In this document: positions 1 to 31,536 of the stretch, one piece after another
Layout: each line of letters begins with the position of its first letter
How positions within the stretch are numbered: position 1 is the first letter of the stretch
NCBI GenBank assembly: GCA_046563655.1
Contig: CM102285.1
Span: 3,100,001-3,164,000, forward strand
DNA from: Yuukianura sp. NJ FZ-2021
Taxonomy: Eukaryota
Direction of reading: 5' to 3'
Length of the DNA: 64,000 nt
Position numbers and translations under genes: made by a program
Notes under the pieces: generated by a model
The model's database searches: none
What the model saw: the letters and a program-made list of their open reading frames with translations, nothing else
Told to the model about the DNA's origin: nothing

Positions 1-1242
1 TTTAGTTTGTTGTTTCTAAGAATCTGAAAGTGCGTTTTTGTTTTTCAACAAAATAGTTCAACTGCAATTGTTCAAATTTTACGCATTCTTCACACGTAAG
101 TTTTTAGTCTCCCTTTATCTCTATTACATTACATTCGAATGATGTCTTTTATGCAGTTGTACAAAAATTGATTAAATTTTTTGTCTCAGGAATTTTTTGT
201 CAAGAACAAAAAAAAACTTTTATCAAAGAACTCGTTTTTTCTTCTGCATTATTCACGGAAGTAAAATCAAAATGGTTTATCACTTTTATTAAGTTGAAGA
301 GGTGTTGTAAGTATCTTTACTTCGTTAATTACTGAAGTAGATTAAGTTTTTTTATGTTAGGTCTGGTTAGTTTTCTTAACGCTAGAAAATTAAGATTATT
401 TAGTGAGATCATTCAGACGAAGTTGTATTTACTTAGCACCGCCCTTCATTTCATTTGACGCTTTCAAAGTGCCATTTAAAATTGAGATTCTCATGATCTC
501 GTGTTTGCTTTTCACACTTACTCAATTTCTAGTCTGCTCAATGCCGTGTCTTTGTATGTGATTTTTGTTGCTCAATTGACTCTAAATTAAAAGAACACTC
601 AAGAAAAGTATTAGCTGTGAAGTTTTGCTGGAAAAACAGCAGGCGGTATTCAACGGCACAGCATGGCGTGGAAGCTAACTGCTTTTAGTTCAAAAACAAT
701 TAGCTCGAACGAGAATTGGTCGACGTAAATCGCTGTACATGACATAACTTAAAATTATTTTCCCATCAAAACTTATAACGGATGTGCAGATGCCAAGCTC
801 TTTCAATTCTAACAATACAAATAACTGCCATGATGCAAGTTTAGTCGAAACAAAACTTACTTTAAATTTTTTGAAATTTTTGACGTGTGAAAGACGTACG
901 ATATTAGATTAACGCAAGAGTTGAATGACTTTGTGAGTCGCAAACTTTTTGAAGTAGGTATTATATTCAAGTAAGTAAAATTTGTTTCATTTTTTGGTGA
1001 GTTTAGAAATAGCGTATAGACTTCTATTTGAACAAATTGCGTTTGAGGTAATGACTGTTGACGTGTTTTGCCTCCCTTTTCTTGAAAGTGCATTTGAAAA
1101 TCTCCCCCACCATTTGCCATAAATCATTTGACAGATCGCTTGAGCCTTCATTTTCTTGTTTATTTACTTGGCAGGGTTTCTCACACTTCCAGCTGGTGGA
1201 GCCAGCATAGTCCACTTTAAAGTGTCCTCGAGACTGCAGGGA

Positions 1243-1863
1243 ATGAAGCACTTTGGTCCACTTTCGTCTTCGATTGCCCCACTTGCCACATTGGTCTTCG
1301 TCTCTACCATTCTATGTCCATTTGTCACTGCCAAAATTGGGAAAATCGGTGACAGTTGCAAAAAGGACAAGGACTGTGACCAATCCAATTTCATCGGATG
1401 TGATCCTGTAACCAGAACGTGTAACTGCCCTGAAGCTCCCGGATTTCGCCTGTACTATTCCCCACTGCAAGGCAAATGTGTTAGCTACGTCGATGGAATT
1501 TGTACTTACACAGAAACGCCGCCACTCCCGATGATCAAATGCGTCGATAATGCTGTCTGCGTTCCTCTGCGCGATCCAACCGAACTGAACGGAAAGTGCG
1601 TTTGCAAAACCAATTATTATCGGACCAAGGCCAATCAATGTGCTAAGAATTTGCCAATTCCTACTGCAAATACGATTGGCGGTGGAGGGGGCATTGAGAC
1701 GCCACGCGGAAGCGGACACGGGACGTCAAAATCAGCGAGCACGCGAAATTCTCCAGAACCGTACCATTCCTATTCAACGGCTTCAGGCAGAGGGCAAGAA
1801 ACCAAAATTTTAGTTCCAGGACTTGTTTTAACTTTTGTTTTAAAAGTTTGGAAATGTGTTTAG
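1243..1863 (+). CDS. Intronless secreted/GPI-type cysteine-rich protein (EB/EGF-like Cys modules)
   Basis: ATG 1243 is followed by a hydrophobic signal-like segment (LATLVFVSTILCPFVTA), then a Cys-rich region starting C-x5-C-x7-C-x6-C-x-C, a Gly/Ser/Thr linker and a hydrophobic C-terminus (ILVPGLVLTFVLKVW). Cys spacing matches the 28834 gene. Confidence 0.8.
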   Translation: MKHFGPLSSSIAPLATLVFVSTILCPFVTAKIGKIGDSCKKDKDCDQSNFIGCDPVTRTCNCPEAPGFRLYYSPLQGKCVSYVDGICTYTETPPLPMIKCVDNAVCVPLRDPTELNGKCVCKTNYYRTKANQCAKNLPIPTANTIGGGGGIETPRGSGHGTSKSASTRNSPEPYHSYSTASGRGQETKILVPGLVLTFVLKVWKCV

Positions 1864-2710: not shown

Positions 2711-5700
2711 ATGGGAGAGACGGAGACAGACAGTGAGCCGGAGGTGGGAATGCAAGTGAACAAGGAGGATGAAAGTGATGTCGAAGCAGAACAGGATTAT
2801 GCAGAATTCAAGAAAACAGGAGATACAGATAAACACAAGGGAAAGAGCGCTAAGAAGTCCAAAAATGCAGGAAAACATCGACGCGGGTCTGACAAAGGTC
2901 AAGCGATGGAAGTCGGCGGAGCATCGGAAAAGGTCAAGGTCATTGTGAGATGTCGACCTCTCAGCGAGAAAGAAATTCTTCAAGGTCATACAAGGTAATG
3001 TGTTTCCCAAACTACATTTTGATGCAAAAATGGAAAATTTTTTAAAATTAGTCAGAAATTACAAAGTCGAAACAAATAAGAGTTTTATCTTAGACTTGAA
3101 AAGAATATCACAAAAATTACTCAATTTTCATTTTACTGCAAACACGAAACTTTTTGGTCGAGTGTTCTCGTATTGATTAGAATTAAAACCAAAACACAAA
3201 CAATGTAAAAGTTTTTTTTTTGCATTTATTTTTAGAATTGTGCAAATTGCGCCAGACAATAAAGCATTGGAAGTTCATCGGCCGAATCCGTCCAGTTCGA
3301 ACTTGGTCAACGCTAAAGTGGACAAAATGTTCACATTTGATGCCGTTTATGACGAAAGGTAGTCATTTCAAACAAAATATAATCCGAGAAAGTAACTTTC
3401 TGCACGCTTTATGAAAACGGAAAGGTGTTCTTTCTGAAATTTAATCATTTTTTTTTTCGTAGAACATCACAGAGCCAGTTGTATGAAGAAGCATTCAAAG
3501 ACTTAATCGACTCCGTTCTGGAGGGATTCAATGGCACTATTTTTGCTTATGGTAAGATGCACCACTTGACCCAATTTTTAAACAAACCGCATCCCATAAC
3601 AAACCAAAAACCGAAAAACAAACGGAAATCAGAAATAAAACTCTTTTCTTAATTTTTTTCAGGTCAAACTGCATCCGGCAAAACATATACAATGGAAGGT
3701 ATTTTGGCATAAAATGTTGACCTTCCGAAAAACCTAACTTGCTCAATTCAAATACCTAAAAAATCTTAGTACTTTGAAAAAAAAAACAGAAGCCATGCAA
3801 CTTTGAAATTTTTGGTAAATTTTCAAATTTGGTTTTACAGGAATTCGTGAAATCAGAGAGCATCAAGGCGTCATTCCGAATGCCTTTCGTCACATCTTCA
3901 GCCGAATCCAAGAGTCGCCTAACATGACGTACCTCGTGAGCGCATCTTACCTAGAGATTTACAACGAAGAGGTCAAGGACCTTCTGAGTCCAAAACTCAA
4001 AATTTGCGAGCTCAAAGAAAACTCGTCCGGCGGTGGAGTTCATGTCAAAGGACTCACGAATTTCTTATGCCGCGATTTTGACGAAATCAACAACCTCATG
4101 ACGACTGGAAACAAAAACCGTTCCGTCGGAGCTACGAACATGAACGAACACAGTTCCCGATCTCACGCTGTTTTCATGATTTCGGTGGAAATGTCTGAAG
4201 AGTGGGCAAATGGCGAAACTCATGTCAAGGTCGGTCACTTGAATCTCGTCGACTTGGCCGGTTCGGAACGGCAAGGAAAAACTGGAGCAGAAGGAGATCG
4301 GTTGAAAGAGGCCGTCAAAATTAACTTGTCTTTGTCTGCTCTGGGAAACGTCATTGGTGCTTTGGCGGACGGAAAGAACGGGCATATTCCTTACAGAGAT
4401 TCGAAACTGACGAGGCTTTTACAAAATTCACTTGGGGGCAACGCTCGAACGATCATGGTGGCTACAATTGGTCCAGCCAGTTACAACTATGACGAAACTG
4501 TTGTCACTCTGCGTTATGCCAGTAGAGCCAAACGAATCAAGAACAAGCCGAAAATTAACGAAGATCCGAAAGACGCTATGCTCAGAAATTACCAGCAGGA
4601 AATTGCCAAGTTACGGTCATTACTGGAGGCAAAGATGAGCCGACAGCTAGATGGCGGCAGCTCAGATGAAGGCAGCGGAAGTGAATCTGCGCAGAAGCGA
4701 CACGGCGCAGGTTCCAGAAGCATTTTTGACAATTCTCTGCTTAAGGAACTTGAACCGTACCTTGATAGCTCTGGAGCTCCAAATGATCCGAAAGACGTTT
4801 TAAAAATTCTGACGGAAAAACGAAAACTATTACTCTCTGATACTGCTACGGTAAAAGAAGAAAAAGAAAGACTGATTTCAAAATTAGAATCAACACATCG
4901 CAAGGTGGAGCAAGCGCAGGAGGAATGCAGTGAACTTCACGCTAGGATTGAATGGTTCCAGTCAAAAGTGCTCAATGGTGACAAGAATCTTCTGGATCAC
5001 ACAAAGGAACAGCAGAAACTGATTGAACAGCGTCAGTTGGAACTGGATGAAGAGAAGGTCAAAGAAGATCAAATTAGACAGAAGATTGAAGAACATGATC
5101 TTGGTGTGGTGGAACTCAAGGAAATTGGCGGAACGATAGAATCACAGAATCATGCGGATCAAAAGAAAGTTAACAAAATGGAAGCCAAAGTTGCAAAGTG
5201 GCGGATTGAGCGTCAAGAACGCGTTGAGAAGCACAGTTACGAAGTTTCGAGAATCCAAAGATACTTTGTGCACAGTCAAAAGTAAGTTTAGAGTAATATT
5301 TTTCAAACATTAGGTTTTGGCCAATCTACGAATTACTTGAAATTTTTGAAAAAAAAAGAAGTATAACCTCAAAAGCCTTGCGTTTAAAAAAATTGAAAAA
5401 CAAATTCCAACATTTTGCGTAAAAAAAAACAAAAATAATGCACAGAGCTCTGTCATTTTGAATTTAAAAAAACTTCTAAAGTATAAAAAAAAAAGCATAA
5501 AAAGCATTTTTCAAAAGCATAAAAATGAAAGCTCCAAACAGAAGAATTTTGAAAAGCATGTATTTTTAAGATTTAATTTTTTTTTTATATAAAAATTCAA
5601 TCTCCACACATTATTGTGAGACTGAAATTTTTTAAACTGTAAAAAAAATACAATTGTGCTGAAATTTAATGCTCTTTTTTTTTGTTTGGCTTCTCAGAGA

Positions 5701-18662: not shown

Positions 18663-21600
18663 ATGGACTCCGAGGAGCTGGAAATGTGCTGGCGGAATCA
18701 TAATCAGACACTCCCACCACTGTTTGACTTCCTGCTTTCCAGTAACACATTCGTTGACGTCACATTGGCTTGTGATGGAAAGCAGCTACATGCCCACAGA
18801 CTTGTTCTTGCAGCATGCAGCGATTATTTACAGGTTTTAATATAATATTTACTATGTAGTTGTATGGCTCACACTCACACCTCAATTAAACTAACTGAAC
18901 TGAAAGTCGATTCGTTGACCCCATTCTAAATTCTCAATCTTTAGGAACTCTTACTTGACAATAAGAATCCTCATCCAATTATCTACCTGAAGGATGTCAA
19001 GTATTCGCATATGACGGCTCTTCTGTCACACATGTACCGTGGCCAGTTCAGAATTCCCAAAGAAGAACTTCCTGAACTGATACGAGTCGCAGAAGGGCTC
19101 AAAATACGAGGAATTCAAGAAATGGTAGACACGTCGTTTTTAGATGCACCCAACATCAATGCTACATCGACACTCCCTCTTCCAAACAATTCCGACCAGA
19201 ATCCGGGGAGTTCGTCCGCTCCATTAACGCTAGGCGATGGGGCAGATGAGATTCCACTCTTATTTTACACTGAGCTGCTGCAAAATTCTGATATGCATGA
19301 ACTTCTCGCTGGCAAAATCACTCAGTGCCTGGATTCTAAAAACGCAAGTAAGCCAAGCTTATCTTTTGAATTTTACGTAGTCAGTCGAGAGTGTAATTCA
19401 CGTTGCGCTAGCTCCTGGTCTGATCATGTAACTTTCTTTAGCAGCTCAAGGCGACGAGGTGGTAAAAGCTGTGAGTTCAATTGCGGAAAAGGAAATTGTC
19501 GACGCTTTCTTCAAGGACTTTTTTGAAATTGAGTTGGGAGAAGTGCAACCATCAGTTGAAAGTAATACAAATGTGCAATGTCAATTTTCTCCTCGTGCTA
19601 ATCAAACCAATCCGCAACCCAATACACCGATGATGACTCCACCTTCGCACCATGAATCAGAAACTGTACTGCTTGTAGCGAACGAAGATACGAATTTAGA
19701 GGAAACTTGCAGTACTATTCCTCTAATGACGACGGGGGACGTAGAAACAGTTTCTGTTGCTACAGAAGTGGTTTCACCTCCGGAGCCAAGCTCAGGCACA
19801 CAGAAGATTCCACACTCTCCGACTGCCACAGCATCAACGAAAAGAATGGTGAGATAATTTCTATTATTTCGTTCTTATTTCTTTAATCTTACATTGTACC
19901 TTGTCTATAGCGGACGGTATTTACTGTTTTGTACGATGACACGAAGAGCGAGGAGGGTGGTGCTGAAGTGAAGCATAGCATGAGGTCAACACCATTTCAG
20001 ACTTTGAAAAGGAAAAGAACACCGAGCGAAGCTATGAAAAACTACAAAAAACCGTGGCTAGTATCTTCTATAAAAAATGAAACTTACCCAATTGTCATCG
20101 ATACGGATACCTGGGCTAGTGTGGGGCGAAGATCTATCAGCCCGAAGTTTATTGATACTGAAATCGCAGCAGATAAAGGACTCCAGTTGTTGACAAAACC
20201 AAACGTCGGCATTGAGCGGGCGACGGTTTTAGCACGTAACTTCAAGGCGGACGTGGGGAATGAGTGTTCAACGTTTTTCACGGGTAACTCCAAGCCCGAC
20301 GACATCGGCATGGAGCGTTCAACGGTTATAGCAACTACCTTCAAGCCTAACGTCGAAAACCAACGTTCAGATACAACCGTTGTAATAAGTAACTCCAATT
20401 TTACCTCGACAAGTGAGACGACTCCTGTTCTTGCGGTGTCAAATACTAGTACCACGGAATTTTTAAACACGAGCAACACCAAACCTCTAGACATGGCCTC
20501 CAACACTTTTGGTCTACTTTCATTGACAGATTCAGAAAATCCTTTACCTGCTTCTGCAATGAAATCTCCACTTATCACACAAACACCTTCGTTTTCCCCA
20601 CCCTCACTGACGACGCCTCTGAAGAACAGTCAGAGTAGTGTCACTGGCACAAACAAATGCGAAGAACCATTACCTCCTACTACACCTCCAACATCCACTG
20701 GGAAACTGTCGACATCTCGTCGTCGATGTTTGAGTCGTATTTTAATTAACAAGGTACACACTATGCTGGAGGCCGAGGATAACCCATCGACATCCACGAC
20801 GGAATTACATGTCACTCCGACGGCACTGACGTCCTTAGAAAAATCAACGACCGACGAAAGTTTAAGAGTATCACGAAGAAAAAGTTACAGTACTCCACGC
20901 AAACGTTCTCAACACGTCAGGAACTTGTGTTTCAAAACTCCACCTAGTGCTCGAGATACTGGCAACAGTAATTCCACTCATCAGTTACCAGCATTTCAGG
21001 AGAGGCGGAGTAACAGAGAGCTGGACTTTGGAATGCCAAACATTTCCAGCACACCTATCTTGAAAACAATCCCGGAGACTAGTTTTGAGGTTGAGGTGAC
21101 TCCATATTCGTTCGAGAAGTCAAGCGTCTCATCTCCGGTAAAACAAAATCTTTGGGTTCCTCCCGCGACTCCGAGAATTTTATCACCGAAAACTCGTCAG
21201 CGACTATTTGGGTCCCCTCTCTTGCAACGTCCTCCGATACAAAAATCATCTGCTGAGCCTGCGCGTGATCCGAGCTACATCAACACACTGCGGAGACTTC
21301 TTGGGAGTCCGCTTGCACCAGGAGTATTGCCAAGTACGCCTGGAAGAACGAAAACCCCTGCCGACATTCAGTTGGATAATTCTAGGTAAAACTTGAATTT
21401 GAAGTTCGTTTCAACGGAACTACTAATCGTGAAATCATCCAACTAATTTTTACTCAAATTTTTTAAATTCTAGCGGAGAAACGACGCTGGACCCGAAGCC
21501 GATGCCTATTCCGGATGCTTTAGCTTTCCCAAAGCCGATACCAAAGCTTAATTTGGATGTTTCGCCGAAGCCAATGCCCAATCTGGATGCCTTCCCGAAG

Positions 21601-21918
21601 CCAACGCCATTGTCTACGTTTGACTCTTTTCAGAAGCCGAAACCAATGCCTCTTCCTAAGCTGAAACCAATGCCTTCGTTGGCTCCTCTTGCTAGGCCGA
21701 GGTTGGGTCCTCTCCCGAACTTAATTCCGAAGTCAGACACTCGTCCACACACCTTGTTTCGAAGAGGTTCCCGACAAAAGTTAATATCAGCATCGTCAAG
21801 AACAACTTTAGTTTCATTTGACTCTACTTTAAGAAGAAAGCCGAGTTCCGACGCAGAAGCAAAGACACTTGATGCTCCATCTTCACAAGTCCGCACTTCT
21901 TTCAAAAATGAAGATTGA
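18663..21918 (+). CDS. BTB/POZ (Tramtrack/bric-a-brac type) protein with long S/T/P-rich tail, no visible zinc finger
   Basis: Exon 18663-18833 CWRNHN...FVDVTLACDGKQLHAHRLVLAACSDY; exon from 18945 HPIIYLKDV...LLSHMYRG...LIRVAEGLKIRG; further exons ~19444-19850, 19911-21384 and 21474-21918. Confidence 0.85.
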
Positions 21919-23026
21919 TGCGGTGTAGTCTTCATCTGGTTTCTGGTTTGGGTTTAAGCTAAAACCGAATCATACGTGTAACTTACTTGTATATATTACT
22001 TATTTAGCTTGTATTAATTTCTTACATTAGATTAATAAGTACTGTAATGTGTGTACGGACACGGAGTCTTCAATTATTTGTGTAGTGTATATACCGCTCT
22101 TCTTTTCACGTACTCGGCGCGGTTTTGGTTTTGTTGTTATGTTTGTATATGATGATGGTTAATTTTTGTCAGGATAGATTTTACGGAGGGGCTTTTTAGA
22201 TTAGATTTACCTTAGATTTCTTATTAATTTAGGAACGAAAGTGTACGTGTTATATTGCTTTAGTAAAAAGTTTGACCGGACAAAATATCGACTCCACACT
22301 CCAGACGTCCAGACTAACAAGGAGTGATATGATGATGATGAGGATGACGCATCATCATCACATGCCCATAGGAATCGTTTTACTTCGGTTGCAAAGCGTT
22401 CCATGAGAAACAGTTTAAAGTTTAATAATGCTTTTGCTTTTCCTGAACAACTTGAAGCATTTTTGCATACCTTTTACGAAATGTTAACTTTGGTAACCTA
22501 AATTTGAGAAATTAAAATGCACTTAAATCCCTCGTCATGCTGTCATTGATTGACATAGACGGAATTGTGCGCTTTAATAATAAAGCTGTTTACCACAATT
22601 GTCTGCTCTTCGTGTTCCGTTAAAAAAAAGTCATGTTTAGAAGGAGGTCATTTGAAAGTTAATCCTACGTGGACGTCTACATAGGCTTTGGCTTTTGTGT
22701 GTTTTTCTTTAGAAGGCAAATTATATTGGAAGGGAGAATAAAATCATTATTTTTCAGATTCATGAACGCTAGGCACGAAAATTATGAGGGTAAAAATGGC
22801 ACAGAACAATAAATTTAATACATGAAGTGCGTACAAATATGTTGCAAAGTAAAGTTGAAATAAATGTGTTACTTCTCAAGTCAACAAATTTTTGAATGTT
22901 GGGGTTCATATTTTCAGACTTATAGAAATATACTTACCGTATTACAGAAACAAGCCCGCGTTGCATTCGTTACTATTAGGAGCGTTGATTTAAGATATGT
23001 AGTTTCATTTTCACATTGTTTGTGGA

Positions 23027-23290
23027 TATGTTGTGGCTATGTTGTGACTATGTTGTGGCTACGTTTTGACTGTTGTGACTGTTGTGGCTATGTTGTAACT
23101 ATGTTGTGGCTACGTTTTGACTATGTTGTGACTGTTGTGGCTATGTTGTGGCTATGTTGTGACTATGTTGTGGCTATGTTGTGGCTATGTTGCGGCTATG
23201 TTGTGGCTATGTTGTGACTATATTGTGGCTATGTTGTGACTATGTTGTGACTATGTTGTGGCTATGTGGTGACTATGTTGTGACTATGTT
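23027..23290. repeat. 11-bp minisatellite (G[G/A]CTATGTTGT)n
   Basis: Roughly two dozen near-perfect tandem copies are directly visible. Confidence 0.95.
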
Positions 23291-24405: not shown

Positions 24406-26934
24406 ATGGGGCCGCCATTGATTAAAATCATTTTATCAAATCAGGATGACGATGTGTATGGAATATTTGACCGGAACGGTTCGGGAGCTGTCGGGCAGCC
24501 GCGGGAGTTCGTACTTTCAGTTGAGTGTGATTATAATCCCAGAACTGGTGGTCTTACGACAAGCGTTTCGCCTCTGGAGTACAAAGGAGTCGAAAATCGG
24601 GTAACCACTAATCATGGCGGGCCAGCGAATTTTATTCACGTATCTTTCCAACGGCTGAGTCAAGCAGGATTTGCTCAAAAGCAATTCAATGCCGAAAAGA
24701 AGATTGAGGAGATACTGACGTCTGGAATAACTGTCCAACATCAAGATGAAATACGCACGTTCATCTTTTGTGGACACAGCAACAGCCAGTTGAAAAGTCG
24801 AAGCTGCTTTTTCTACAAAGCAGAGTGTGCTAACGATGTCACTGGGATCTTAACCGGATTCGGGAACTTTGCTCAAATCAAAACTGTAGAAAAGTATGTC
24901 AAGAGAATCGGACTCTTATTTTCTAAATCAACTGTGGATACACAACTTCAACCAGAGATGACATTGGACATTCCAGACGTTGAAAGAAATGGCCATATTT
25001 TCACTGATGGATGTGGACTCATTTCTACATCATTTGCCAAAACTCTGACCGCGCTAATCGGGAAAGAGAAAAACGATCTTCCAAAGAACTACATTCCAAG
25101 CGTCTTTCAAATTCGATACAAAGGATATAAAGGAATCTTGATGGTGGTCTCCAATGAATTCATCCACGATCAGGCAATCTCAAATCAAAGCCTAATTTCC
25201 AAGATTTGGCGAAGTATTGGCGGTACTGGCAGGATAGTTTTGTTTCGAAACTCGATGAAGAAGTTTGAAGGGTGTCCAGATAATACGTTTGCAGTTTTGG
25301 ATTACTCGAAACCATATTTTGCTGGAGCTCTAAATGCAGAAATTGTTAACTTGCTTTCAAGTAATGGCATTCCAAATGATGTTTTACTCAAGAAACAAGG
25401 GCGGTACTTGAACTATATCCGCAGTGTGGATTACGATAACCGGGAAAGTGTCGTCCAGTTTTTGAAGTTGGTGCGTCGCTACGATCTGGTTGCGAAACTT
25501 GCAGCAGTTGAAGATATACAGTACATTCCTACTTGGATCAAAGGCAAGGTTCAAGAAATGAAACGTCAAGAGTTGTCCAAGTCACTCGATGTCAGTGGAA
25601 TGGCGCGCGTTCATATTCAAATTCCAAATTCCCGCCTTTTGTTAGGCGTTTGCGACGTTTCTGGAAAACTACTCGAGGGGCAATGCTACGTTCGAATTCT
25701 CTCAACAGACTTGACGCATAGCATTCCCATAAGCGGGCAGGTCATAGTGACTAGGAATCCATGTCTTTTCCCCGGAGACATTCAACACTTCATTGCTCAA
25801 GGTAACATTCCAGAATTGGCTCACTTGTCTGACTGCATTGTGTTTAGTACTCAGGGGAAAATGCCGGCAGCATCTACTCTAAGTGGTGGTGACTTGGATG
25901 GAGACAAGTTCTATGTTTCTTGGGATCCTGATTTAATCAAAATGGAATCCAAGGGGGCCCTGGACTACTCTTTATTGGCTCCTCGAACTACTGTTGTTCC
26001 TTCTATCACTTGGGAAATGAGGGTTATGTACTTTGCTCACTATGCAACTTCACTGGGCAACATAATATCACTTTACTGGAAATGGACCAATGCCCGTCCG
26101 ACACAGAGAGCCAACTGCTCCGAGTGCAAACAACTTAGCAAATTGTATGCAAGATGCGTCGATGGTGAGAAAGTCCAAATCCCAAAGGCATTACGCAACC
26201 CGCCGCCCAGCACCAATGATGCTGATATTCTGAAAGTACTGAAACAAAACATCAAGGACATTGTGTTTGGGACGGGAAGAAATTTTCATGACTTTCTTAA
26301 TGCGACTGATGTCATTCCCGAGAGCTTGCCACATGGCGACATTCAAGGCGACGAGCCGTTTCTACAAGATCCTCCTCAACCCGGGAGCAAACGGCAACTT
26401 ATCAACAGAAGTTTAACTGCAATTCGTCAGTTCATATTCACTTTTGGAGTTTGGATGATGCTGCTGTCAATCCCGGGTGTACTATCATGTTATTGGAATT
26501 TGGAGACCATGCGGGAGGTTGGCGGCAGTATACTTTTGGTTGTGGGCGATACAATTGAACAGGTTTTGCTTACGAGGGTAGACGACACAACCATTGGCAG
26601 ATGGATGATACTTTTTGTGGTCATTTGTAGTTGCATTTATGGCCTTGCTATACATGTGACAAAATGGCTGAAGGACTCTGTTAGGGCCTTGGAAATAAGA
26701 ATTCTTGGACATCATTGGAGGCGTGGCTGGATTGGCAAGACGTTCAGATTTGTGAAGAGACTGCTTGTTCAGATTTTCGGCAGAAGAAGGAATTTGGCCA
26801 GATATACCAATGCTCAAGTTGGACAGCGTTTCTACAACTCAGCATCTGTGTATGATGATTTGAACGATTTTATAAACAAATATCAACTACTTCCAATAAT
26901 AACCTTTGCGTTGCTTACCTACCTATTAGGTTAA
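24406..26934 (+). CDS. Cellular RNA-dependent RNA polymerase (RdRP/RDR family), intronless CDS, with hydrophobic C-terminal extension
   Basis: 842-aa ORF with GHSNSQLKSRSC, KRIGLLFS, FTDGCGLIS, PSVFQIRYKGYKG, SRLLLGVCD, VTRNPCLFPGD, and the catalytic SGGDLDGDKFYVSWD (DLDGD at 25891-25905). Confidence 0.95.
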   Translation: MGPPLIKIILSNQDDDVYGIFDRNGSGAVGQPREFVLSVECDYNPRTGGLTTSVSPLEYKGVENRVTTNHGGPANFIHVSFQRLSQAGFAQKQFNAEKKIEEILTSGITVQHQDEIRTFIFCGHSNSQLKSRSCFFYKAECANDVTGILTGFGNFAQIKTVEKYVKRIGLLFSKSTVDTQLQPEMTLDIPDVERNGHIFTDGCGLISTSFAKTLTALIGKEKNDLPKNYIPSVFQIRYKGYKGILMVVSNEFIHDQAISNQSLISKIWRSIGGTGRIVLFRNSMKKFEGCPDNTFAVLDYSKPYFAGALNAEIVNLLSSNGIPNDVLLKKQGRYLNYIRSVDYDNRESVVQFLKLVRRYDLVAKLAAVEDIQYIPTWIKGKVQEMKRQELSKSLDVSGMARVHIQIPNSRLLLGVCDVSGKLLEGQCYVRILSTDLTHSIPISGQVIVTRNPCLFPGDIQHFIAQGNIPELAHLSDCIVFSTQGKMPAASTLSGGDLDGDKFYVSWDPDLIKMESKGALDYSLLAPRTTVVPSITWEMRVMYFAHYATSLGNIISLYWKWTNARPTQRANCSECKQLSKLYARCVDGEKVQIPKALRNPPPSTNDADILKVLKQNIKDIVFGTGRNFHDFLNATDVIPESLPHGDIQGDEPFLQDPPQPGSKRQLINRSLTAIRQFIFTFGVWMMLLSIPGVLSCYWNLETMREVGGSILLVVGDTIEQVLLTRVDDTTIGRWMILFVVICSCIYGLAIHVTKWLKDSVRALEIRILGHHWRRGWIGKTFRFVKRLLVQIFGRRRNLARYTNAQVGQRFYNSASVYDDLNDFINKYQLLPIITFALLTYLLG

Positions 26935-27832
26935 CTCCAGAAAACGGTTTAATGTCCCTCGCAAATTGTTCGTTGGCGGTCGGACGTAAGAAATAATAAT
27001 AGTCAATATTTGGTAAATTACTACTTCAGATATTTGTACATTAATTAGCTATTGACTTAAATAGTAACATCTACTTTACGATAATATACGATACATACGA
27101 TATATTACAAGAATATATTAGAACATATACTATAATATGCACGACATTTGCACTATAATATTTACGACATATACTACATACAATATGAACGACATATTCC
27201 ACAAAATTCACGATATGTATTATCTAGATATAATAGTTATAAATGATCATATCATTGAAAATAGTAACGCATCATAAAAAACTGAAATTATTCTAAAAAA
27301 AAAGATATGGCACACAACTTAAGGCGGCAGTGCCTACTTACGGAAGGAAAATGATAAGCGGCGGTTATGGCATGGCTTCGAGAGGATCTCCCACCGTAAT
27401 TGTCTGTTTGAAATTACAATGTTGTGTACACATTTTTCAAAATTATATTTAAAAAGAAATGTAGATAATAATACACAAAATTTGGTAGTTTTGGGTAGTG
27501 GGTTTCTTCCATCTCGTCATAGTACTACTTGGATGAGTTTTTTTTTCAAACATTCACCAAATTAGATATAATATCTTGAGCGCACAATTTTTTTTATAGC
27601 TTTTCAAAATTTTTGTAGAATACTACAATCAGTCGAAATCTGACTGATAACTTTTTTTTAGATTATTTTTAGTTAAGTTGTAATTAGTTAGGTTGTATTT
27701 GGATTAATCATTAATGAAACCAGGAATATACTTTAATAGAAAGGTACTTTATTAATATATACTTGCAAGTATTTACAAATTGAAAGGTCGAGTCAATCCT
27801 TTCTTACGACAGACGTAAGTTCTACGAAACAA

Positions 27833-28007
27833 GGGAATTTCCCAAGGATTTGTTTTCTCGTCAGCGCATTATAACGACAAATTGTTGCAAGATTGAGATT
27901 GACACATTTCCTTGAATGCGTTAGAAGATTCATTAGAAATGCGTTAATTTCAAACTAAAAGTAAGAATTAGGGAACTCTATGTTGCACGAGTTAAATCAT
28001 ATAAATA
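27833..28007 (+). promoter_or_regulatory. NF-kB-type site and TATA box upstream of the secreted peptide gene
   Basis: GGGAATTTCCC at 27833-27843 and TATAAATA at 28000-28007. Weaker kB-like sites occur at 27971 (GGGAACTCTA) and ~28049 (GGGAAAGTTC). Confidence 0.65.
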
Positions 28008-28093
28008 GTTTGATGCTAGTTGTGCTAGGCATCACTTCTCAATTAACTGGGAAAGTTCGGAGATACTTGTGGAAACTAAAGGTTACAGTCAAA

Positions 28094-28417
28094 ATGAAGT
28101 CGGTGTTGCTTGTTGCATTCGTCTCCTGCTGTCTGCTGGTTTGTTTCCCGGGTCAAAGTTCAGCAATGTGGAAGAACGCTGCAAAGAATCTTGGAAATGC
28201 CGCCAAGAACGTCGGTGACCAAAGTTCTCTTCAAAGTACTCTGCAGAATGGATATGACCAGGCCAAAAATCCACAACAAACTCCACAAACTACTGGAAAG
28301 GTGATGGGCCTACTCGCTCAGCAACGTCAACAATCACAGCAACCGGCACAGTCTTCGTCGCAGGCTCAACCGAAGGGACATTCTATCACAAAATTCCTTG
28401 GAGGAGGTGGGAAGTGA
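28094..28417 (+). CDS. Small secreted Gln-rich peptide (107 aa), candidate immune effector
   Basis: AAAATG start, signal peptide MKSVLLVAFVSCCLLVCFPGQSSA, TATA upstream and AATAAA at 28527. Confidence 0.8.
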   Translation: MKSVLLVAFVSCCLLVCFPGQSSAMWKNAAKNLGNAAKNVGDQSSLQSTLQNGYDQAKNPQQTPQTTGKVMGLLAQQRQQSQQPAQSSSQAQPKGHSITKFLGGGGK

Positions 28418-28833
28418 TTTTGGCGGGAAACTAAACTTAGGTTCAAAATATTTCATGTTCGTATCAAATACGTTGAAATTGGCATTGTACGTTTAACTTT
28501 GAATCAATTGGTTGACGCTTTGAATTAATAAAACATTTTGGAAATTTATCCAGTCAGTAGTATGATGACGACAGTTTATAAAATTTCAGTTTACGTCGGT
28601 TTTCTTAGAACATTTCTTCATTTGAAATGATTTTTGATGAAACTGCGAAATGACTCAAGTTCATGATACTACCACAACCACATCCCCAAGTTTCCAGCGT
28701 TGTCCTGGTTTGCTCAATTTCCTTTCTTCATTTAAGCATTTAACGTTAGTTTCATATATCATTCAACCGAATTTTGCAAGAAAAGGTTTGAAAAAATTAA
28801 CGGTTTGGTTTGTTGAATTAAAGTTTGGAAACA

Positions 28834-29301
28834 ATGGTTAGATTCTACTTTGAACGAATTTCAATATTCTTGATTCTTTTGATTCCACTAACGCTGGGTG
28901 AAAACGCGGGAGGATTCGGATCTTACGGCTCAATTTGCGACCGGGACCAACAGTGCAACACCAACGCTTACTTGATCTGCGACTCTCAGAAGCGGCAGTG
29001 CGAGTGCTTTAGTTCTTACGGAGAAGTATTTGAAGGAGGGAAATGTCGTCATAAGCCCGATGTGAGGTGCGTCATAGCCGAGGATCGCTGCACGGAGCAC
29101 GCGGAGTGCGTGGATGAAGGTGATGGATCTGGACAACGATCGACCAGAGGATCATGCACATGCACCAAGCGATCAGTGTACGATAGACGAGCTGAAAAGT
29201 GTATTAGTGTGGCTACGTCCTCCACAATTTCAAATTTGAAATTCCCACTGTTGCTGCAATTATTCCTCTGCTCAAAACTATTTTTTGTTTTAATTAAATA
29301 A
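28834..29301 (+). CDS. Intronless secreted/GPI-type cysteine-rich protein, paralog of the 1243 gene
   Basis: Signal-like ISIFLILLIPLTLG, C-x5-C-x7-C-x6-C-x-C module plus a second Cys module, and a hydrophobic C-terminus. Confidence 0.8.
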   Translation: MVRFYFERISIFLILLIPLTLGENAGGFGSYGSICDRDQQCNTNAYLICDSQKRQCECFSSYGEVFEGGKCRHKPDVRCVIAEDRCTEHAECVDEGDGSGQRSTRGSCTCTKRSVYDRRAEKCISVATSSTISNLKFPLLLQLFLCSKLFFVLIK

Positions 29302-29515
29302 ACTAAAACGGCGATTAAAGAACAGGCAAATCAAAACTGTTTCAAGTCATATCAAGTTGGCATTTCAAGTCATATTCGGCGGTAGTTCATTGAGTAAAGC
29401 AGTTTAATTAAGTTGGGTCCGATAATCTGAACGTATTATTATGACAAAGGCCATAACGTTAGCAAAAGTAAATAACATAAGTAGTACAAGGGCGCTGGCT
29501 TTCCTGAATTGCGGT

Positions 29516-29857
29516 TTAGGTCATAGTACAGGTATAGGTAAATCCTAAATAACCTCCAAGACATGCACCGGCAACGGCTAGAATGAGCAATATGTAGAAA
29601 TAGCAGCATGGACATCCTCCAGCTCCAGCACTTTGAGTATAGGCGAAACTGCTTCCGGCCCTAACGTTACCAATATTAGATTGGCAGCATGCCGCCATCG
29701 ACCCTTTGGCGATACCACAGCAAGTGAAGCCAAGGATGGTGAGAGCAATCGGAACCAGAATAACCATGGCTATGGCTCCACCGAGCATGCTTAGAATCCA
29801 GATTCCGATTCTTTCAAAAGCCCAACTCCAGTGCCATGGGAGAAACGAACCGGACAT
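29516..29857 (-). CDS. IFI27/IFI6 (ISG12 motif) family small membrane protein
   Basis: LGFTCCGIAKGSMAACCQSNIGNVRAGSSFAYTQSAGAGG matches the ISG12 pattern GFT..GIA.GS.AA...S...G.V.AGS..A..QS.GA.G and is flanked by hydrophobic segments. A probable 5'-UTR intron lies at ~29861-29939. Confidence 0.85.
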   Translation of the reverse strand: MSGSFLPWHWSWAFERIGIWILSMLGGAIAMVILVPIALTILGFTCCGIAKGSMAACCQSNIGNVRAGSSFAYTQSAGAGGCPCCYFYILLILAVAGACLGGYLGFTYTCTMT

Positions 29858-30272
29858 ATCTGGAATGCAAGAAACGAATAGCTCATGAGTTTGATTGCTA
29901 TAACAATATGTTAACTATTTTTAGCGTTTCTTAATTCACCAGCTGAGCGAGTAGCCCGTGTTGCGTGCCAAACACAGAAGCCTTGAAACTACTACAAAAC
30001 GGGCCTACCAGTGGAAATCTTCAATTTCAATTTCATTTCCATTTCAATTTTATTTCATTTCGCGAGTCTAACGTTAACTAATGACTTTGCTAACTTTTAA
30101 CTATCCCACCCACCGGCCAATATATATTGTTGGATAATTAGTGTTTAATGACACTAACTCCCTAGTTAGTGTCATAAACCCTCCATTCCGAAAGGTAAGG
30201 ATTATGCGTACAGGGCAACAGTTATTATTCTGTACTTATGTTTCATATCTTACCAACGTAGCGAACGCATCC

Positions 30273-30420
30273 GGAAACTGTTTCGTTCCAAATCGAAACT
30301 GTTTCATTCCAAACTGAATTCGAAACTGGTCCATTCCAAATCGAAACCGTTTCATTACTAATTGAATTTGAAACCGAAAGTGTCTGGTTCCAAACAGCTA
30401 CCGTTCCATTCCAAACCGCC
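30273..30420. repeat. Degenerate ~21-bp tandem repeat (GAAACTGTTTCATTCCAAATC-like)
   Basis: About six imperfect copies are visible. Confidence 0.7.
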
Positions 30421-30939
30421 GCCATATTAAGTAGATGTAGGGGAGACATTCTTCCGAGAGAGATCTGAAAAATTCAACCAACTTTAGCTGAGAACAGAAT
30501 CCTCGATAGGATCCGATCAGGAAAAGCCGAGGCCGAGCAAAAACAAAATGATACACGTTATTGAAGTGGAACACAGTTTAACTAAGCTTTACAAATAATT
30601 TACTAACCTTTTATTGTATTTGTTCAGTCACGATAATGATCAAATAAAATAACAATAAGAAATGAGACGAAACGGAAGCTGGCACGACACGGAGACGAAT
30701 GGGGGAGGACACTTGAAATAAAGCAATGAACAAACAATAGGTAGTAATTTCGGTTGAGGTAAACTTTAACGACCGTCATTGTAGCGGGAAATTTTAGCCA
30801 CTCCGCGGCTACAATAAGCGGCTATACCCACAGGCACAAGGTATACACCGTGAGGCAAACGTAATGTTGGCGCTTTGTTATGTTTTTATTCTAGCTAAAC
30901 CGGACCTTACGACCTTACCTAATTTGTACCCACTACATA

Positions 30940-31056
30940 CAGGGTGGCCCGGTGAAGTCCTTACCCAAGTGAAAGAAAGAGAAACTCTCACATGAGTTTC
31001 TTATGACAATAGTGAGAGGAAAAGAAAGAGGGTAAGGACTTCACCGGGCCACCCTG
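30940..31056. mobile_element. Tc1/mariner-type MITE (117 bp)
   Basis: Perfect 27-bp TIRs CAGGGTGGCCCGGTGAAGTCCTTACCC, flanked by TA on both sides. Confidence 0.92.
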
Positions 31057-31536
31057 TACAAAATATAATACTATAAAATATCGGCGACCGCAGCTTTGTT
31101 ACATTAGCATTTGCTAAAATTTTACCCCAATCCATATTTATTAACAGAAGACTCTGAGCTTGCAACACATTGTGATTGCTTGGTTTAGAATTAGATGAAT
31201 TATGAATTTAATACTGTCTAAACCGTCCTTTCAATCTGTTATACTGTTTTTTTTTTTTAAATAAAGTAAGAATTCTGCAGTTTGCATTTGAAGGATTCCA
31301 TTTCTCTATTTTTGTTTGAAAAGAATGTATTCACACTTAGAATTTTACAAGTTTTATTGGCGGAACTGAAGTGTATAGCCGGAAAGTAAGTTTTTAAAAC
31401 ATTGGTTACATAATAAAGTTAGCTACAATAGCTGTTCTGTCATCAAGATGAGAAGTTTACATGTTGTGGGGCGTAAAGTCTAAAGATCCCCAAGGAGTGT
31501 GATTGGTAGTGATTTACGATTCAAAGAATTTAGTCA

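What the first reader, a model, noticed from the sequence alone, without database searches (positions are those of the whole stretch)
24406..30420. Candidate innate/antiviral defence island: RdRP, kB-driven peptide, Cys-rich surface protein and IFI27-like gene
Seen: four compact genes with uninterrupted CDSs in ~6 kb, wedged between multi-exon housekeeping genes and bracketed by a minisatellite and a MITE. Three have a separate immunity link: RNAi amplification, a kB site before a secreted peptide, and the ISG12 family. The fourth is a Cys-rich surface protein. Inference: a co-regulated defence cluster, analogous to prokaryotic defence islands.
Basis: inference. Interest (0 to 1): 0.75.

Follow-up and report, generated by a model that had tools for sequence, protein, structure and literature searches.

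The report
Four small genes, including an RdRP
An animal (probably arthropod) genome carries a fungal-type RNA-copying enzyme next to three small membrane or secreted protein genes, but nothing here shows that they act together as a defence unit.

Summary
The four uninterrupted coding sequences are real. 24406-26934 (+) is a cellular RNA-dependent RNA polymerase (Pfam PF05183, E 1.6e-100). Its DLDGD catalytic motif is intact and its model has an RDR2/QDE-1-like fold. 29516-29857 (-) is an Ifi-6-16/ISG12-family protein (47.8 bits, cut-off 29.1). 28094-28417 (+) encodes a secreted, cationic, Gln/Gly-rich peptide of no known family. 28834-29301 (+) encodes a 12-Cys secreted protein whose nearest Atlas clusters are arthropod EGF/EB-like proteins.

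The 11-bp minisatellite and an exact kB-like site are present, but kB-like sites are no more frequent than chance (6 observed, 3.9 expected). The supposed MITE is a tandem array rich in ISRE-like motifs upstream of the Ifi-6-16 gene.

The RdRP belongs to a small, divergent subfamily. Its closest named relatives are all fungal, it lacks their helicase, and it ends in a hydrophobic tail. Horizontal versus vertical origin is unresolved (AU p 0.27).

No motif is shared by all four promoters. Synteny and expression could not be tested, so the "defence island" remains an untested inference. I rate chance adjacency of small genes as more likely, with the Ifi-6-16 gene and the peptide gene as separate candidates for inducible expression.

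The parts
23020..23290 (.). 11-bp-period minisatellite (about 25 copies, consensus TTGTGGCTATG), 1.1 kb upstream of the RdRP ATG
   Evidence: Tandem Repeats Finder; sequence; no other copy in the window
24406..26934 (+). Single-exon CDS of an 842-aa cellular (eukaryotic-type) RNA-dependent RNA polymerase
   Evidence: ORF. Pfam PF05183 E 1.6e-100, residues 63-595. PDB phmmer: RDR2-type E about 1e-43, QDE-1 5.5e-15. AF2 core pLDDT about 90. Foldseek best hits maize/Arabidopsis RDR2 (E 7e-37, TMq 0.57) and QDE-1 (about 1e-28). It keeps 76 of 84 columns that are at least 95% conserved in 120 homologues. Its N-terminus aligns with the start of homologues.
25891..25905 (+). Catalytic DLDGD motif (residues 496-500, within SGGDLDGD)
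   Evidence: Invariant in alignment A1 and at least 90% conserved in A2. The DbDGD active-site definition is quoted in PMC6396948 (passage).
26311..26931 (+). Lineage-specific C-terminal region (residues about 636-842). It has hydrophobic helices at 676-690 and 729-752 and a hydrophobic extreme C-terminus at 827-842. It stands where close relatives carry a linker and an SF1 helicase.
   Evidence: Hydropathy scans. No Pfam family. AF2 helical but pLDDT below 50. P0001 has the same layout (552-568, 614-634) without significant sequence similarity (E 0.79). 3 of 256 homologues end in a hydrophobic stretch.
27833..27843 (.). Palindromic kB-like site GGGAATTTCCC, flanked by STAT-like TTCNNNGAA at 27820-27828 and 27908-27916
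   Evidence: Frequencies in the window are not above chance (6 vs 3.9; 40 vs 32.9).
28000..28007 (+). TATAAATA box of the peptide gene
28094..28417 (+). CDS of a 107-aa secreted peptide precursor. The leader is MKSVLL...SSA. The predicted 83-aa mature part is Gln/Gly/Lys-rich with net charge +7, no Cys, and ends in GGGGK. AATAAA lies at 28527.
   Evidence: ORF. Hydropathy. Composition. No Pfam family above cut-off. No PADLOC hit. Poly(A) signal.
28834..29301 (+). CDS of a 155-aa protein with an N-terminal leader, 12 Cys in two 6-Cys modules, and a C-terminal hydrophobic tail (GPI-signal-like or transmembrane)
   Evidence: No Pfam family at E up to 0.1. Atlas nearest clusters score 0.95, are arthropod, and carry EB PF01683 in 11-15% of members. 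Paralogue at 1144-1860 with aligned Cys. The AF2 single-sequence model is unusable (pLDDT 49).
29516..29857 (-). CDS of a 113-aa Ifi-6-16/ISG12-family protein with two long hydrophobic segments (15-52, 77-108)
   Evidence: Pfam PF06140 E 1.4e-12, 47.8 bits against cut-off 29.1. Hydropathy. Atlas: all ten best family-bearing hits are Ifi-6-16. No hit by the word-index search.
30020..30061 (-). (GAAAT/TGAAAT)n microsatellite upstream of the Ifi-6-16 ATG, holding two GAAANNGAAA
30274..30423 (.). It holds the only GAAASYGAAASY (IRF-E-type) match of the window (30370-30381) and five ISRE-like 12-mers.
   Evidence: No inverted repeat and no second copy in the window.
30938..31058 (.). 121-bp element with perfect 29-nt terminal inverted repeats (a possible MITE or hairpin), between the Ifi-6-16 gene and the ABCB gene
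   Evidence: Fold -73.9 kcal/mol, z -11.7. Single copy in the window.

Best explanation
The locus holds four separate, probably functional small genes that lie side by side in a gene-dense animal genome. They are most likely four independent transcription units, not one co-regulated unit.

(1) An RdRP of the fungal-type branch of the cellular RdRP family. Shown: it keeps the catalytic core. Inferred: it copies single-stranded RNA into complementary RNA. Inferred: its unusual hydrophobic C-terminal tail, which stands in place of the helicase of its closest relatives, holds it on an internal membrane.

(2) A TATA-driven gene for a secreted, cationic, Gln/Gly-rich peptide with a kB-like site and two STAT-like sites upstream. 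Inferred: it is an inducible humoral effector.

(3) A secreted or GPI-anchored two-module Cys-rich protein of an arthropod EGF/EB-like family. No immune link is shown.

(4) A two-transmembrane Ifi-6-16/ISG12 protein whose upstream region carries an ISRE-like tandem array. Inferred: expression depends on IRF or a similar factor, as reported for the shrimp homologue.

Shown: gene identities, intact motifs, and the positions of the motifs. Inferred: every statement about expression, location in the cell, and function.
For: Gene identities and integrity.

Each gene has its own TATA-like box. Three of the four have AATAAA or ATTAAA downstream, which fits four separate transcription units. The Ifi-6-16 gene is on the opposite strand.

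No regulatory motif I scanned occurs at all four promoters:
- kB-like: only at the peptide gene.
- IRF-E/ISRE-like: only upstream of the Ifi-6-16 gene.
- STAT-like: at the peptide and Cys-rich genes.
- None of these in the 1.1 kb before the RdRP ATG.

The RdRP's codon usage matches that of neighbouring host exons (GC3 0.435; RSCU r 0.61, against 0.59 between two halves of the host set). It is therefore a long-resident gene, not contamination.

The Cys-rich family has another member 27 kb away.

The window is dense throughout, with about 12 genes in 64 kb, so close neighbours are the rule.

The literature shows that animal RdRPs do not reliably act in antiviral amplification (PMC6396948 abstract; PMC10062562 abstract).
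Against: Four consecutive genes with intronless coding sequences lie between multi-exon genes. That is unusual enough to call for a common cause, such as shared origin, shared chromatin or shared selection.

Two of the four promoters carry textbook immune-type elements:
- A perfect kB palindrome with flanking STAT-like sites.
- The only IRF-E consensus of the 64-kb window (0.22 expected in the whole window), 513 bp from the ATG of an ISG-family gene and inside the densest GAAAC/GTTTC bin of the window (9 against a mean of 0.7 per 200 bp).

A shrimp IFI6-16 is virus-induced and depends on IRF and STAT (PMC9144789).

I chose the IRF-E/ISRE patterns after seeing the GAAA-rich repeats, and the array's copies are not independent, so these numbers overstate significance.
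Confidence: 0.6

Rival explanations
1. Co-regulated defence cluster. On infection, NF-kB, STAT and/or IRF-type factors switch on the whole 6-kb block. The RdRP then makes dsRNA from viral or aberrant RNA for Dicer. The peptide acts outside the cell, and the Ifi-6-16 protein acts on internal membranes.
For: A kB palindrome with STAT-like sites lies before the peptide gene. An ISRE-like array lies before the Ifi-6-16 gene. All four coding sequences are compact and intronless, as is common for fast-response genes (general knowledge, not tested here). There is a shrimp IFI6-16 precedent (PMC9144789).
Against: No shared motif across the four promoters, and none of the scanned motifs in the 1.1 kb before the RdRP. 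kB and STAT motif counts are at chance. No immune link was found for the Cys-rich gene, which has a paralogue elsewhere. RdRP function in animals is labile (PMC6396948, PMC10062562). None of the four proteins, nor the nuclease ORF at 50489-51199, hits PADLOC. If the host is an insect, IRFs would be missing: the RLR-MAVS-IRF axis is lost in Drosophila and, for RLRs, in insects (PMC6723221, passage).
Confidence: 0.13
2. Block acquired from a fungus. The RdRP, and possibly the Ifi-6-16 gene, entered an arthropod ancestor by horizontal transfer, which would explain the intronless coding sequences and the fungal affinities. The neighbourhood would then reflect origin, not function.
For: All 68 named proteins among the 120 best RdRP hits are fungal; the other 52 are unnamed. 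In a tree rooted with distant RdRPs, the window's subfamily sits inside a clade (SH-aLRT 98) with Ascomycota and Basidiomycota, and a Glomeromycota sequence branches earlier. The nearest Atlas clusters of the Ifi-6-16 protein are ascomycete and basidiomycete, tied with chordate at 0.87. A fungal-like RdRP in a centipede was read as horizontal transfer (bioRxiv 10.1101/185694, passages).
Against: The AU test does not reject a tree in which the named fungi are held together apart from the subfamily (p 0.271, delta lnL 15). The subfamily lies outside both Dikarya clades in the 121-row tree. Codon usage is fully host-like. The gene between them is of an arthropod family. Pinzon et al. argue that the animal gamma RdRPs, the centipede's included, are vertically inherited (PMC6396948, passage). 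Atlas scores below 0.9 are leads only. Hidden paralogy among fungal RdRPs could mimic nesting.
Confidence: 0.12
3. One or both of the family-less ORFs (the peptide and the Cys-rich protein) are not expressed genes. The cluster would then be only an RdRP gene and an Ifi-6-16 gene about 2.6 kb apart.
For: Neither has a Pfam family. The peptide is low-complexity and Gln-rich. The Atlas recognition value of the Cys-rich protein (2195) is below the 2300 that 91% of known families reach.
Against: Both have a leader peptide, a TATA box at a fitting distance and a poly(A) signal. The Cys-rich ORF has a paralogue with every Cys aligned and scores 0.95 to arthropod clusters with 194 of 256 shared features.
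Confidence: 0.1

Closest known systems
Fungal RdRP-SF1 helicase fusion proteins (PF05183 with AAA_11/AAA_12), e.g. the named hits from Lophiostoma, Alternaria and Serpula
   Same: These are the best full-length matches, at 37-46% identity over the RdRP core. The N-terminal start is the same, and the RNPCLxPGD and SGGDLDGD motifs are the same.
   Different: The window's protein lacks the ~700-aa linker and the helicase. It has a hydrophobic C-terminal region instead. It lies in an animal genome, between animal genes, and has host-like codon usage.
Animal cellular RdRPs outside nematodes: the fungal-like RdRP of the centipede Strigamia maritima and the RdRPs reported in the insects Clunio marinus and Rhagoletis zephyria
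   Same: It is a PF05183 gene in an animal, in a lineage where RdRPs are sporadic. It has fungal affinity, as described for Strigamia (10.1101/185694 and PMC6396948, passages).
   Different: I could not compare sequences, because no named animal RdRP was among the proteins I could fetch. The window's species is unknown. No paper I read mentions a hydrophobic C-terminal tail; the search for 'PF05183' with 'transmembrane' gave 8 papers, 5 of them listed, and none was about this by title or abstract.
Plant RDR2 and Neurospora QDE-1 (solved structures)
   Same: Same fold and catalytic motif. Foldseek: E 7e-37, TMq 0.57 to maize RDR2, and about 1e-28 to QDE-1.
   Different: Only 24-26% and 18-19% identity in the structural alignments. 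There is no N-terminal RRM/head extension: the core starts at about residue 35 of 842.
LvIFI6-16 of the shrimp Litopenaeus vannamei and vertebrate IFI6/IFI27 (ISG12)
   Same: A small protein (about 110-130 aa) with hydrophobic segments and the Ifi-6-16 domain (PMC9144789, passages). An ISRE-like element lies upstream, as in vertebrate ISG promoters; the ISRE and IRF-E consensus sequences are recalled, not taken from a call.
   Different: No sequence comparison with LvIFI6-16 was possible. Inducibility is unknown. The family also occurs in fungi, so membership says nothing about interferon-like regulation.
Prokaryotic defence islands
   Same: Only the idea that unrelated putative defence genes lie side by side.
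   Different: Defence islands are defined by statistically recurrent co-location across many genomes, which was not testable here. None of the four proteins, nor the nuclease ORF at 50489-51199, hits PADLOC. There are no mobile-element hallmarks around the block beyond one small inverted-repeat element.

Membership tests
Cellular (eukaryotic-type) RdRP, Pfam PF05183 | Family profile matched above the curated cut-off over most of its length | tested here: met
   338 bits against cut-off 23.8; profile positions 16-538 of 582
Cellular (eukaryotic-type) RdRP, Pfam PF05183 | Catalytic DbDGD motif (b = bulky residue) intact | tested here: met
   DLDGD at residues 496-500, aligned with the invariant motif of homologues. 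The definition is from PMC6396948.
Cellular (eukaryotic-type) RdRP, Pfam PF05183 | Fold of the solved RdRPs (RDR2, QDE-1) | tested here: met
   AF2 core pLDDT about 90. Foldseek E 7e-37, TMq 0.57 to maize RDR2, and about 1e-28 to QDE-1.
Cellular (eukaryotic-type) RdRP, Pfam PF05183 | RNA-templated RNA synthesis, and a role in small-RNA amplification | not testable with these tools
   Needs enzyme assays and small-RNA sequencing
Ifi-6-16 / ISG12 (FAM14), Pfam PF06140 | Family profile matched above the curated cut-off | tested here: met
   47.8 bits against 29.1; residues 26-101 on profile positions 4-81 of 84. All Atlas best hits with a family are Ifi-6-16.
Ifi-6-16 / ISG12 (FAM14), Pfam PF06140 | Small, hydrophobic, Gly/Ala-rich membrane protein | tested here: met
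   113 aa with hydrophobic segments at 15-52 and 77-108
Ifi-6-16 / ISG12 (FAM14), Pfam PF06140 | Induction by interferon-like or antiviral signalling (the 'ISG' property) | not testable with these tools
   Only a promoter lead: an IRF-E-type 12-mer at 30370-30381 and an ISRE-like array
NF-kB-driven antimicrobial peptide gene | kB site in the proximal promoter, above chance | tested here: inconclusive
   An exact site lies 157 bp before the TATA box, but the window holds 6 against 3.9 expected. About 0.09 sites are expected in the four 300-bp promoters together (my arithmetic).
NF-kB-driven antimicrobial peptide gene | Secreted cationic mature peptide | tested here: met
   Hydrophobic leader. 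The predicted 83-aa mature part has net charge +7. The cleavage site is inferred by eye.
NF-kB-driven antimicrobial peptide gene | Similarity to a known antimicrobial peptide family | tested here: not met
   No Pfam family above cut-off. No homologue search was run on it.
EB module / EGF-like small arthropod proteins (PF01683) | Profile match to EB or EGF | tested here: not met
   No Pfam family at E up to 0.1. Atlas similarity of 0.95 to arthropod clusters in which only 11-15% of members carry EB is a lead only. The AF2 model was too poor for a fold search.
Defence island / co-regulated cluster | Recurrent linkage of the same gene kinds in other genomes | not testable with these tools
Defence island / co-regulated cluster | Shared regulatory elements at all member genes | tested here: not met
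   kB-like, IRF-E/ISRE-like and STAT-like motifs each occur at one or two promoters, and none before the RdRP
MITE (for 30243-30420) | Terminal inverted repeats and multiple copies | tested here: not met
   Direct tandem repeats only. No other copy in the window. The genome-wide copy number could not be tested.

The most novel reading that the evidence does not exclude
A membrane-tethered cellular RdRP subfamily: a fungal-type core whose helicase is replaced by a hydrophobic, tail-anchor-like C-terminus. It is found so far only in the window, P0001 and fragments. It sits beside an ISG12-family gene driven by an ISRE-like array and a cationic peptide gene flanked by kB and STAT sites. The three would form an infection-inducible antiviral module that acts at internal membranes, where many RNA viruses replicate. 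This would be an animal example of unrelated defence genes kept together.
Probability: 0.08. Interest if true: 0.8.

Novelty: new member of a known kind. Interest (0 to 1): 0.35.

Why it matters
Cellular RdRPs are rare and patchy in animals outside nematodes, and their function there is an open question (PMC6396948).

This gene is intact and long-resident. It belongs to a divergent subfamily with a hydrophobic tail, an architecture I did not see in the papers I read. It is therefore a usable test case for what animal RdRPs do and where in the cell they act.

The ISRE-like array before an arthropod ISG12-family gene is a cheap, direct test of whether IRF-type regulation of such genes extends beyond shrimp.

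If the four genes proved to be co-induced and repeatedly linked, it would be a first hint of defence-island-like organisation in an animal. Nothing here shows that.

Tried and rejected
- **Species identification failed.**
  - Rfam found no RNA gene in the window.
  - Pfam scans of 21 and 60 further ORFs gave no taxon-specific domain.
  - The BTB exon had no PDB match.
  - My third word-index search, on the kinesin exon, used lengths='longer'. That excluded normal-length orthologues and gave no close relative.
  - A tree of those kinesins only showed a very long branch inside KIF3B, outside nematodes and malacostracans.
  - The only taxon lead is 'Arthropoda', from the Atlas clusters of the Cys-rich protein.
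- **Ifi-6-16 homologues:** the word-index search found none.
- **Cys-rich protein structure:** the single-sequence AF2 model had pLDDT 49, so I ran no fold search on it.
- **RdRP trees:** the first rooted tree did not finish. I repeated it on 513 trimmed columns with LG+G4.
- **Recent transfer or contamination:** rejected on codon usage and the animal flanking genes.
- **Retrocopy origin of the RdRP:** no poly(A) tract follows the stop codon (by eye).
- **Repeats as a mobile family:** no second copy of the minisatellite, the arrays, the inverted-repeat element or the RdRP-peptide spacer exists in the window.
- **PADLOC:** none of the four proteins, nor the nuclease ORF at 50489-51199, gave a hit.
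- **Supplements of PMC6396948:** listed only. They are seven figure-type PDFs and were not read, so a list of RdRP-bearing species there may bear on which animal this is.
- **Not used:** Complex prediction (no binding claim is made); the genome-contig scan (prokaryotes only); the closed viral and metagenome collections.

Full report
**What is in the sequence**

The window is an animal genome and is gene-dense. Pfam scans of its long ORFs show these genes:
- a KIF3B-type kinesin (3.4-7.5 kb, +)
- a BTB gene (18.9-21.9 kb, +)
- an ABCB transporter (31.5-38.5 kb, -)
- an F-box gene (about 39.5-42 kb, +)
- a long-chain acyl-CoA synthetase (46.7-49.8 kb, +)
- an intronless Endonuclea_NS_2 ORF (50489-51199, -)
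- a Rho kinase (54.3-62.2 kb, +)

Between the BTB and ABCB genes lie the four ORFs of the finding: 24406-26934 (+, 842 aa), 27980-28417 (+, 145 aa), 28834-29301 (+, 155 aa) and 29516-29857 (-, 113 aa). For the second ORF, a TATAAATA at 28000 and a hydrophobic leader that starts at the ATG at 28094 make a 107-aa product more likely.

Each gene has a TATA-like box upstream. Three of the four have AATAAA or ATTAAA downstream; the RdRP has none within 600 bp.

The 11-bp minisatellite at 23020-23290 is real.

**The RdRP**

*Identity and integrity.*
- Pfam PF05183 matches at E 1.6e-100 over residues 63-595.
- PDB sequence search finds RDR2-type polymerases at about 1e-43 and QDE-1 at 5.5e-15.
- In alignments with homologues, the RNPCLxPGD and SGGDLDGD motifs are kept.
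- The protein retains 76 of the 84 columns that are at least 95% conserved among its 120 best homologues. That is as many as bona fide fungal members on long branches: Clavulina keeps 77 of 85 and Funneliformis 68 of 88.
- An AlphaFold2 model built on a 32-row alignment has pLDDT of about 90 through the core.
- The model matches maize and Arabidopsis RDR2 (Foldseek E 7e-37, TMq 0.57) and QDE-1 (about 1e-28).
- The N-terminus aligns with the start of homologues, including the fragment P0310 of the same subfamily. The single exon therefore appears to hold the whole coding sequence.

*Relatives.*
- Among the 120 best of 373 word-index hits, 68 carry names and all 68 are fungi: 29 Ascomycota, 38 Basidiomycota and 1 Glomeromycota. 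The other 52 are unnamed.
- Many of the best hits are fusions of an RdRP with an SF1 helicase.
- The exhaustive HMMER search gave 3809 hits at E up to 0.001. No full-length relative was closer than 47% identity (P0001). There were fragments at 72% (P0248, 213 aa), 57% (P0286) and 48% (P0310).
- These four rows form a fully supported subfamily with the window's protein (SH-aLRT 100).
- In a 121-row FastTree the subfamily lies outside the ascomycete clade (70 rows) and the basidiomycete clade (41 rows).
- In a 47-row tree rooted with eight distant RdRPs, it falls inside a clade (SH-aLRT 98) with both Dikarya groups, and a Glomeromycota sequence branches earlier.
- The AU test does not reject holding the 17 named fungi together against the subfamily plus the outgroup (p 0.271, delta lnL 15).
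- Horizontal transfer from a fungus and vertical descent of a fungal-like animal clade both remain open. The same dispute exists in print for the centipede RdRP (10.1101/185694 against PMC6396948; passages).
- Codon usage equals that of neighbouring host exons, so any transfer is old.

*The unusual C-terminus.*
- After residue 635 there is no helicase. Instead there is a 207-residue region with no Pfam family.
- It has hydrophobic stretches at 676-690 and 729-752, and at the very C-terminus (827-842).
- P0001 has the same layout (552-568, and 614-634 at its end), but its tail shows no significant sequence similarity (E 0.79).
- Only 3 of 256 retrieved homologues end in a hydrophobic stretch. 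One of them, P0248, is a truncated fragment.
- AF2 predicts helices there at low confidence.
- Membrane tethering is therefore an inference from hydropathy alone.

**The Ifi-6-16 gene and its upstream region**

Pfam PF06140 scores 47.8 bits against a cut-off of 29.1. The protein has two long hydrophobic segments. The word-index search found no relatives. The Atlas places it next to Ifi-6-16 clusters of Ascomycota, Basidiomycota and Chordata, all at 0.87. The family thus reaches far beyond organisms with interferon, and membership alone is no immune link.

A shrimp homologue is, however, induced by WSSV, protects against it, and depends on IRF and STAT (PMC9144789, abstract and passages).

It has no inverted repeats and no second copy in the window. 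The array stands out in three ways:
- It holds the only match in 64 kb to the IRF-E-type pattern GAAASYGAAASY (30370-30381, 513 bp from the ATG). The whole window is expected to hold 0.22, and 18 of 100 shuffles have at least one.
- It holds five ISRE-like 12-mers (at most 1 mismatch). Of 34 such matches in the window (20.5 expected), 9 lie in 30023-31304.
- It lies in the window's densest GAAAC/GTTTC bin, with 9 per 200 bp against a mean of 0.7.

A (GAAAT)n stretch at 30020-30061 adds two GAAANNGAAA.

Three caveats apply:
- The consensus patterns are recalled from memory and were chosen after I had seen the repeats.
- Tandem copies are not independent.
- If the host is an insect it would lack IRFs (PMC6723221, passage).

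**The peptide gene**

The predicted mature part is 83 aa, Gln/Gly/Lys-rich, with net charge +7 and no Cys. It has no family.

The kB-like palindrome GGGAATTTCCC (27833-27843) lies 157 bp before the TATA box. STAT-like TTCNNNGAA sites flank it at 27820 and 27908. Neither motif is enriched in the window: 6 against 3.9 for kB, and 40 against 32.9 for STAT.

**The Cys-rich gene**

The protein has a leader, 12 Cys in two modules and a hydrophobic C-terminus. It has no Pfam family. Its nearest Atlas clusters (0.95, 194 of 256 features) are small arthropod proteins of which 11-15% carry the EB module. That is also the only lead to the host's phylum.

A paralogue with every Cys aligned lies at 1144-1860. 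The family is therefore not confined to this block.

**Is it a defence island?**

Nothing testable supports co-regulation:
- No scanned motif is shared by all four promoters.
- None of the scanned motifs lies in the 1.1 kb before the RdRP.
- The genes look like four separate units, one of them on the opposite strand.
- None of the four proteins, nor the nuclease ORF at 50489-51199, hits PADLOC.

Recurrence of the linkage and co-induction would decide the matter, but neither could be examined. No eukaryotic genome context was available, and the species could not be named.

Published work warns against equating an animal RdRP with antiviral amplification (PMC6396948 and PMC10062562, abstracts).

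I therefore rate chance adjacency of small, lineage-specific genes in a dense genome as the most likely reading (0.6).

**Verdict**

The genes are real and two identities are right. The cluster hypothesis is unproven. Two features are worth following up: the tail-bearing RdRP subfamily, and the ISRE-like array before the ISG12-family gene.

Noticed in passing
window 50489-51199 (-): Intronless 237-aa ORF with a DNA/RNA non-specific endonuclease domain (Endonuclea_NS_2, 28.5 bits against cut-off 27). It has no PDB or PADLOC match. Two adjacent kB-like decamers (50792-50811) and two TTCCCGGAA sites (50639, 50797) lie inside it. It is another compact gene that could be foreign-derived or defence-related.
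   Followed up: partly
window 1144-1860 (+): 239-aa ORF that is paralogous to the Cys-rich protein of the finding: 27% identity over 118 aa with all Cys aligned.
   Followed up: partly
window 30938-31058: 121-bp element with perfect 29-nt terminal inverted repeats. As RNA it folds to -73.9 kcal/mol (z -11.7). It is single-copy in the window. It could be the real MITE of the region, or a hairpin RNA source next to an RdRP locus.
   Followed up: partly
window 3819-5282 (+): The KIF3B-type kinesin exon sits on a very long branch (1.19 changes per column) inside the KIF3B clade, outside nematodes and malacostracan crustaceans. This points to a fast-evolving, poorly sampled host lineage.
   Followed up: partly
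window 21433-21915 (+) and 21550-21608: ORF with repeated PKPMP/PKPIP-type proline-rich units at the 3' end of the BTB gene, including a 30-bp tandem repeat. It has no Pfam family.
   Followed up: no
window 29301-29516: The Cys-rich gene and the Ifi-6-16 gene converge. Their stop codons are 215 bp apart and their ATTAAA signals (29314 on +, 29408 on -) are about 100 bp apart, so the 3' ends could overlap as antisense transcripts.
   Followed up: no
window 27128-27197: 23-bp tandem repeat (2.9 copies) in the AT-rich spacer (29% GC) between the RdRP gene and the peptide gene.
   Followed up: no
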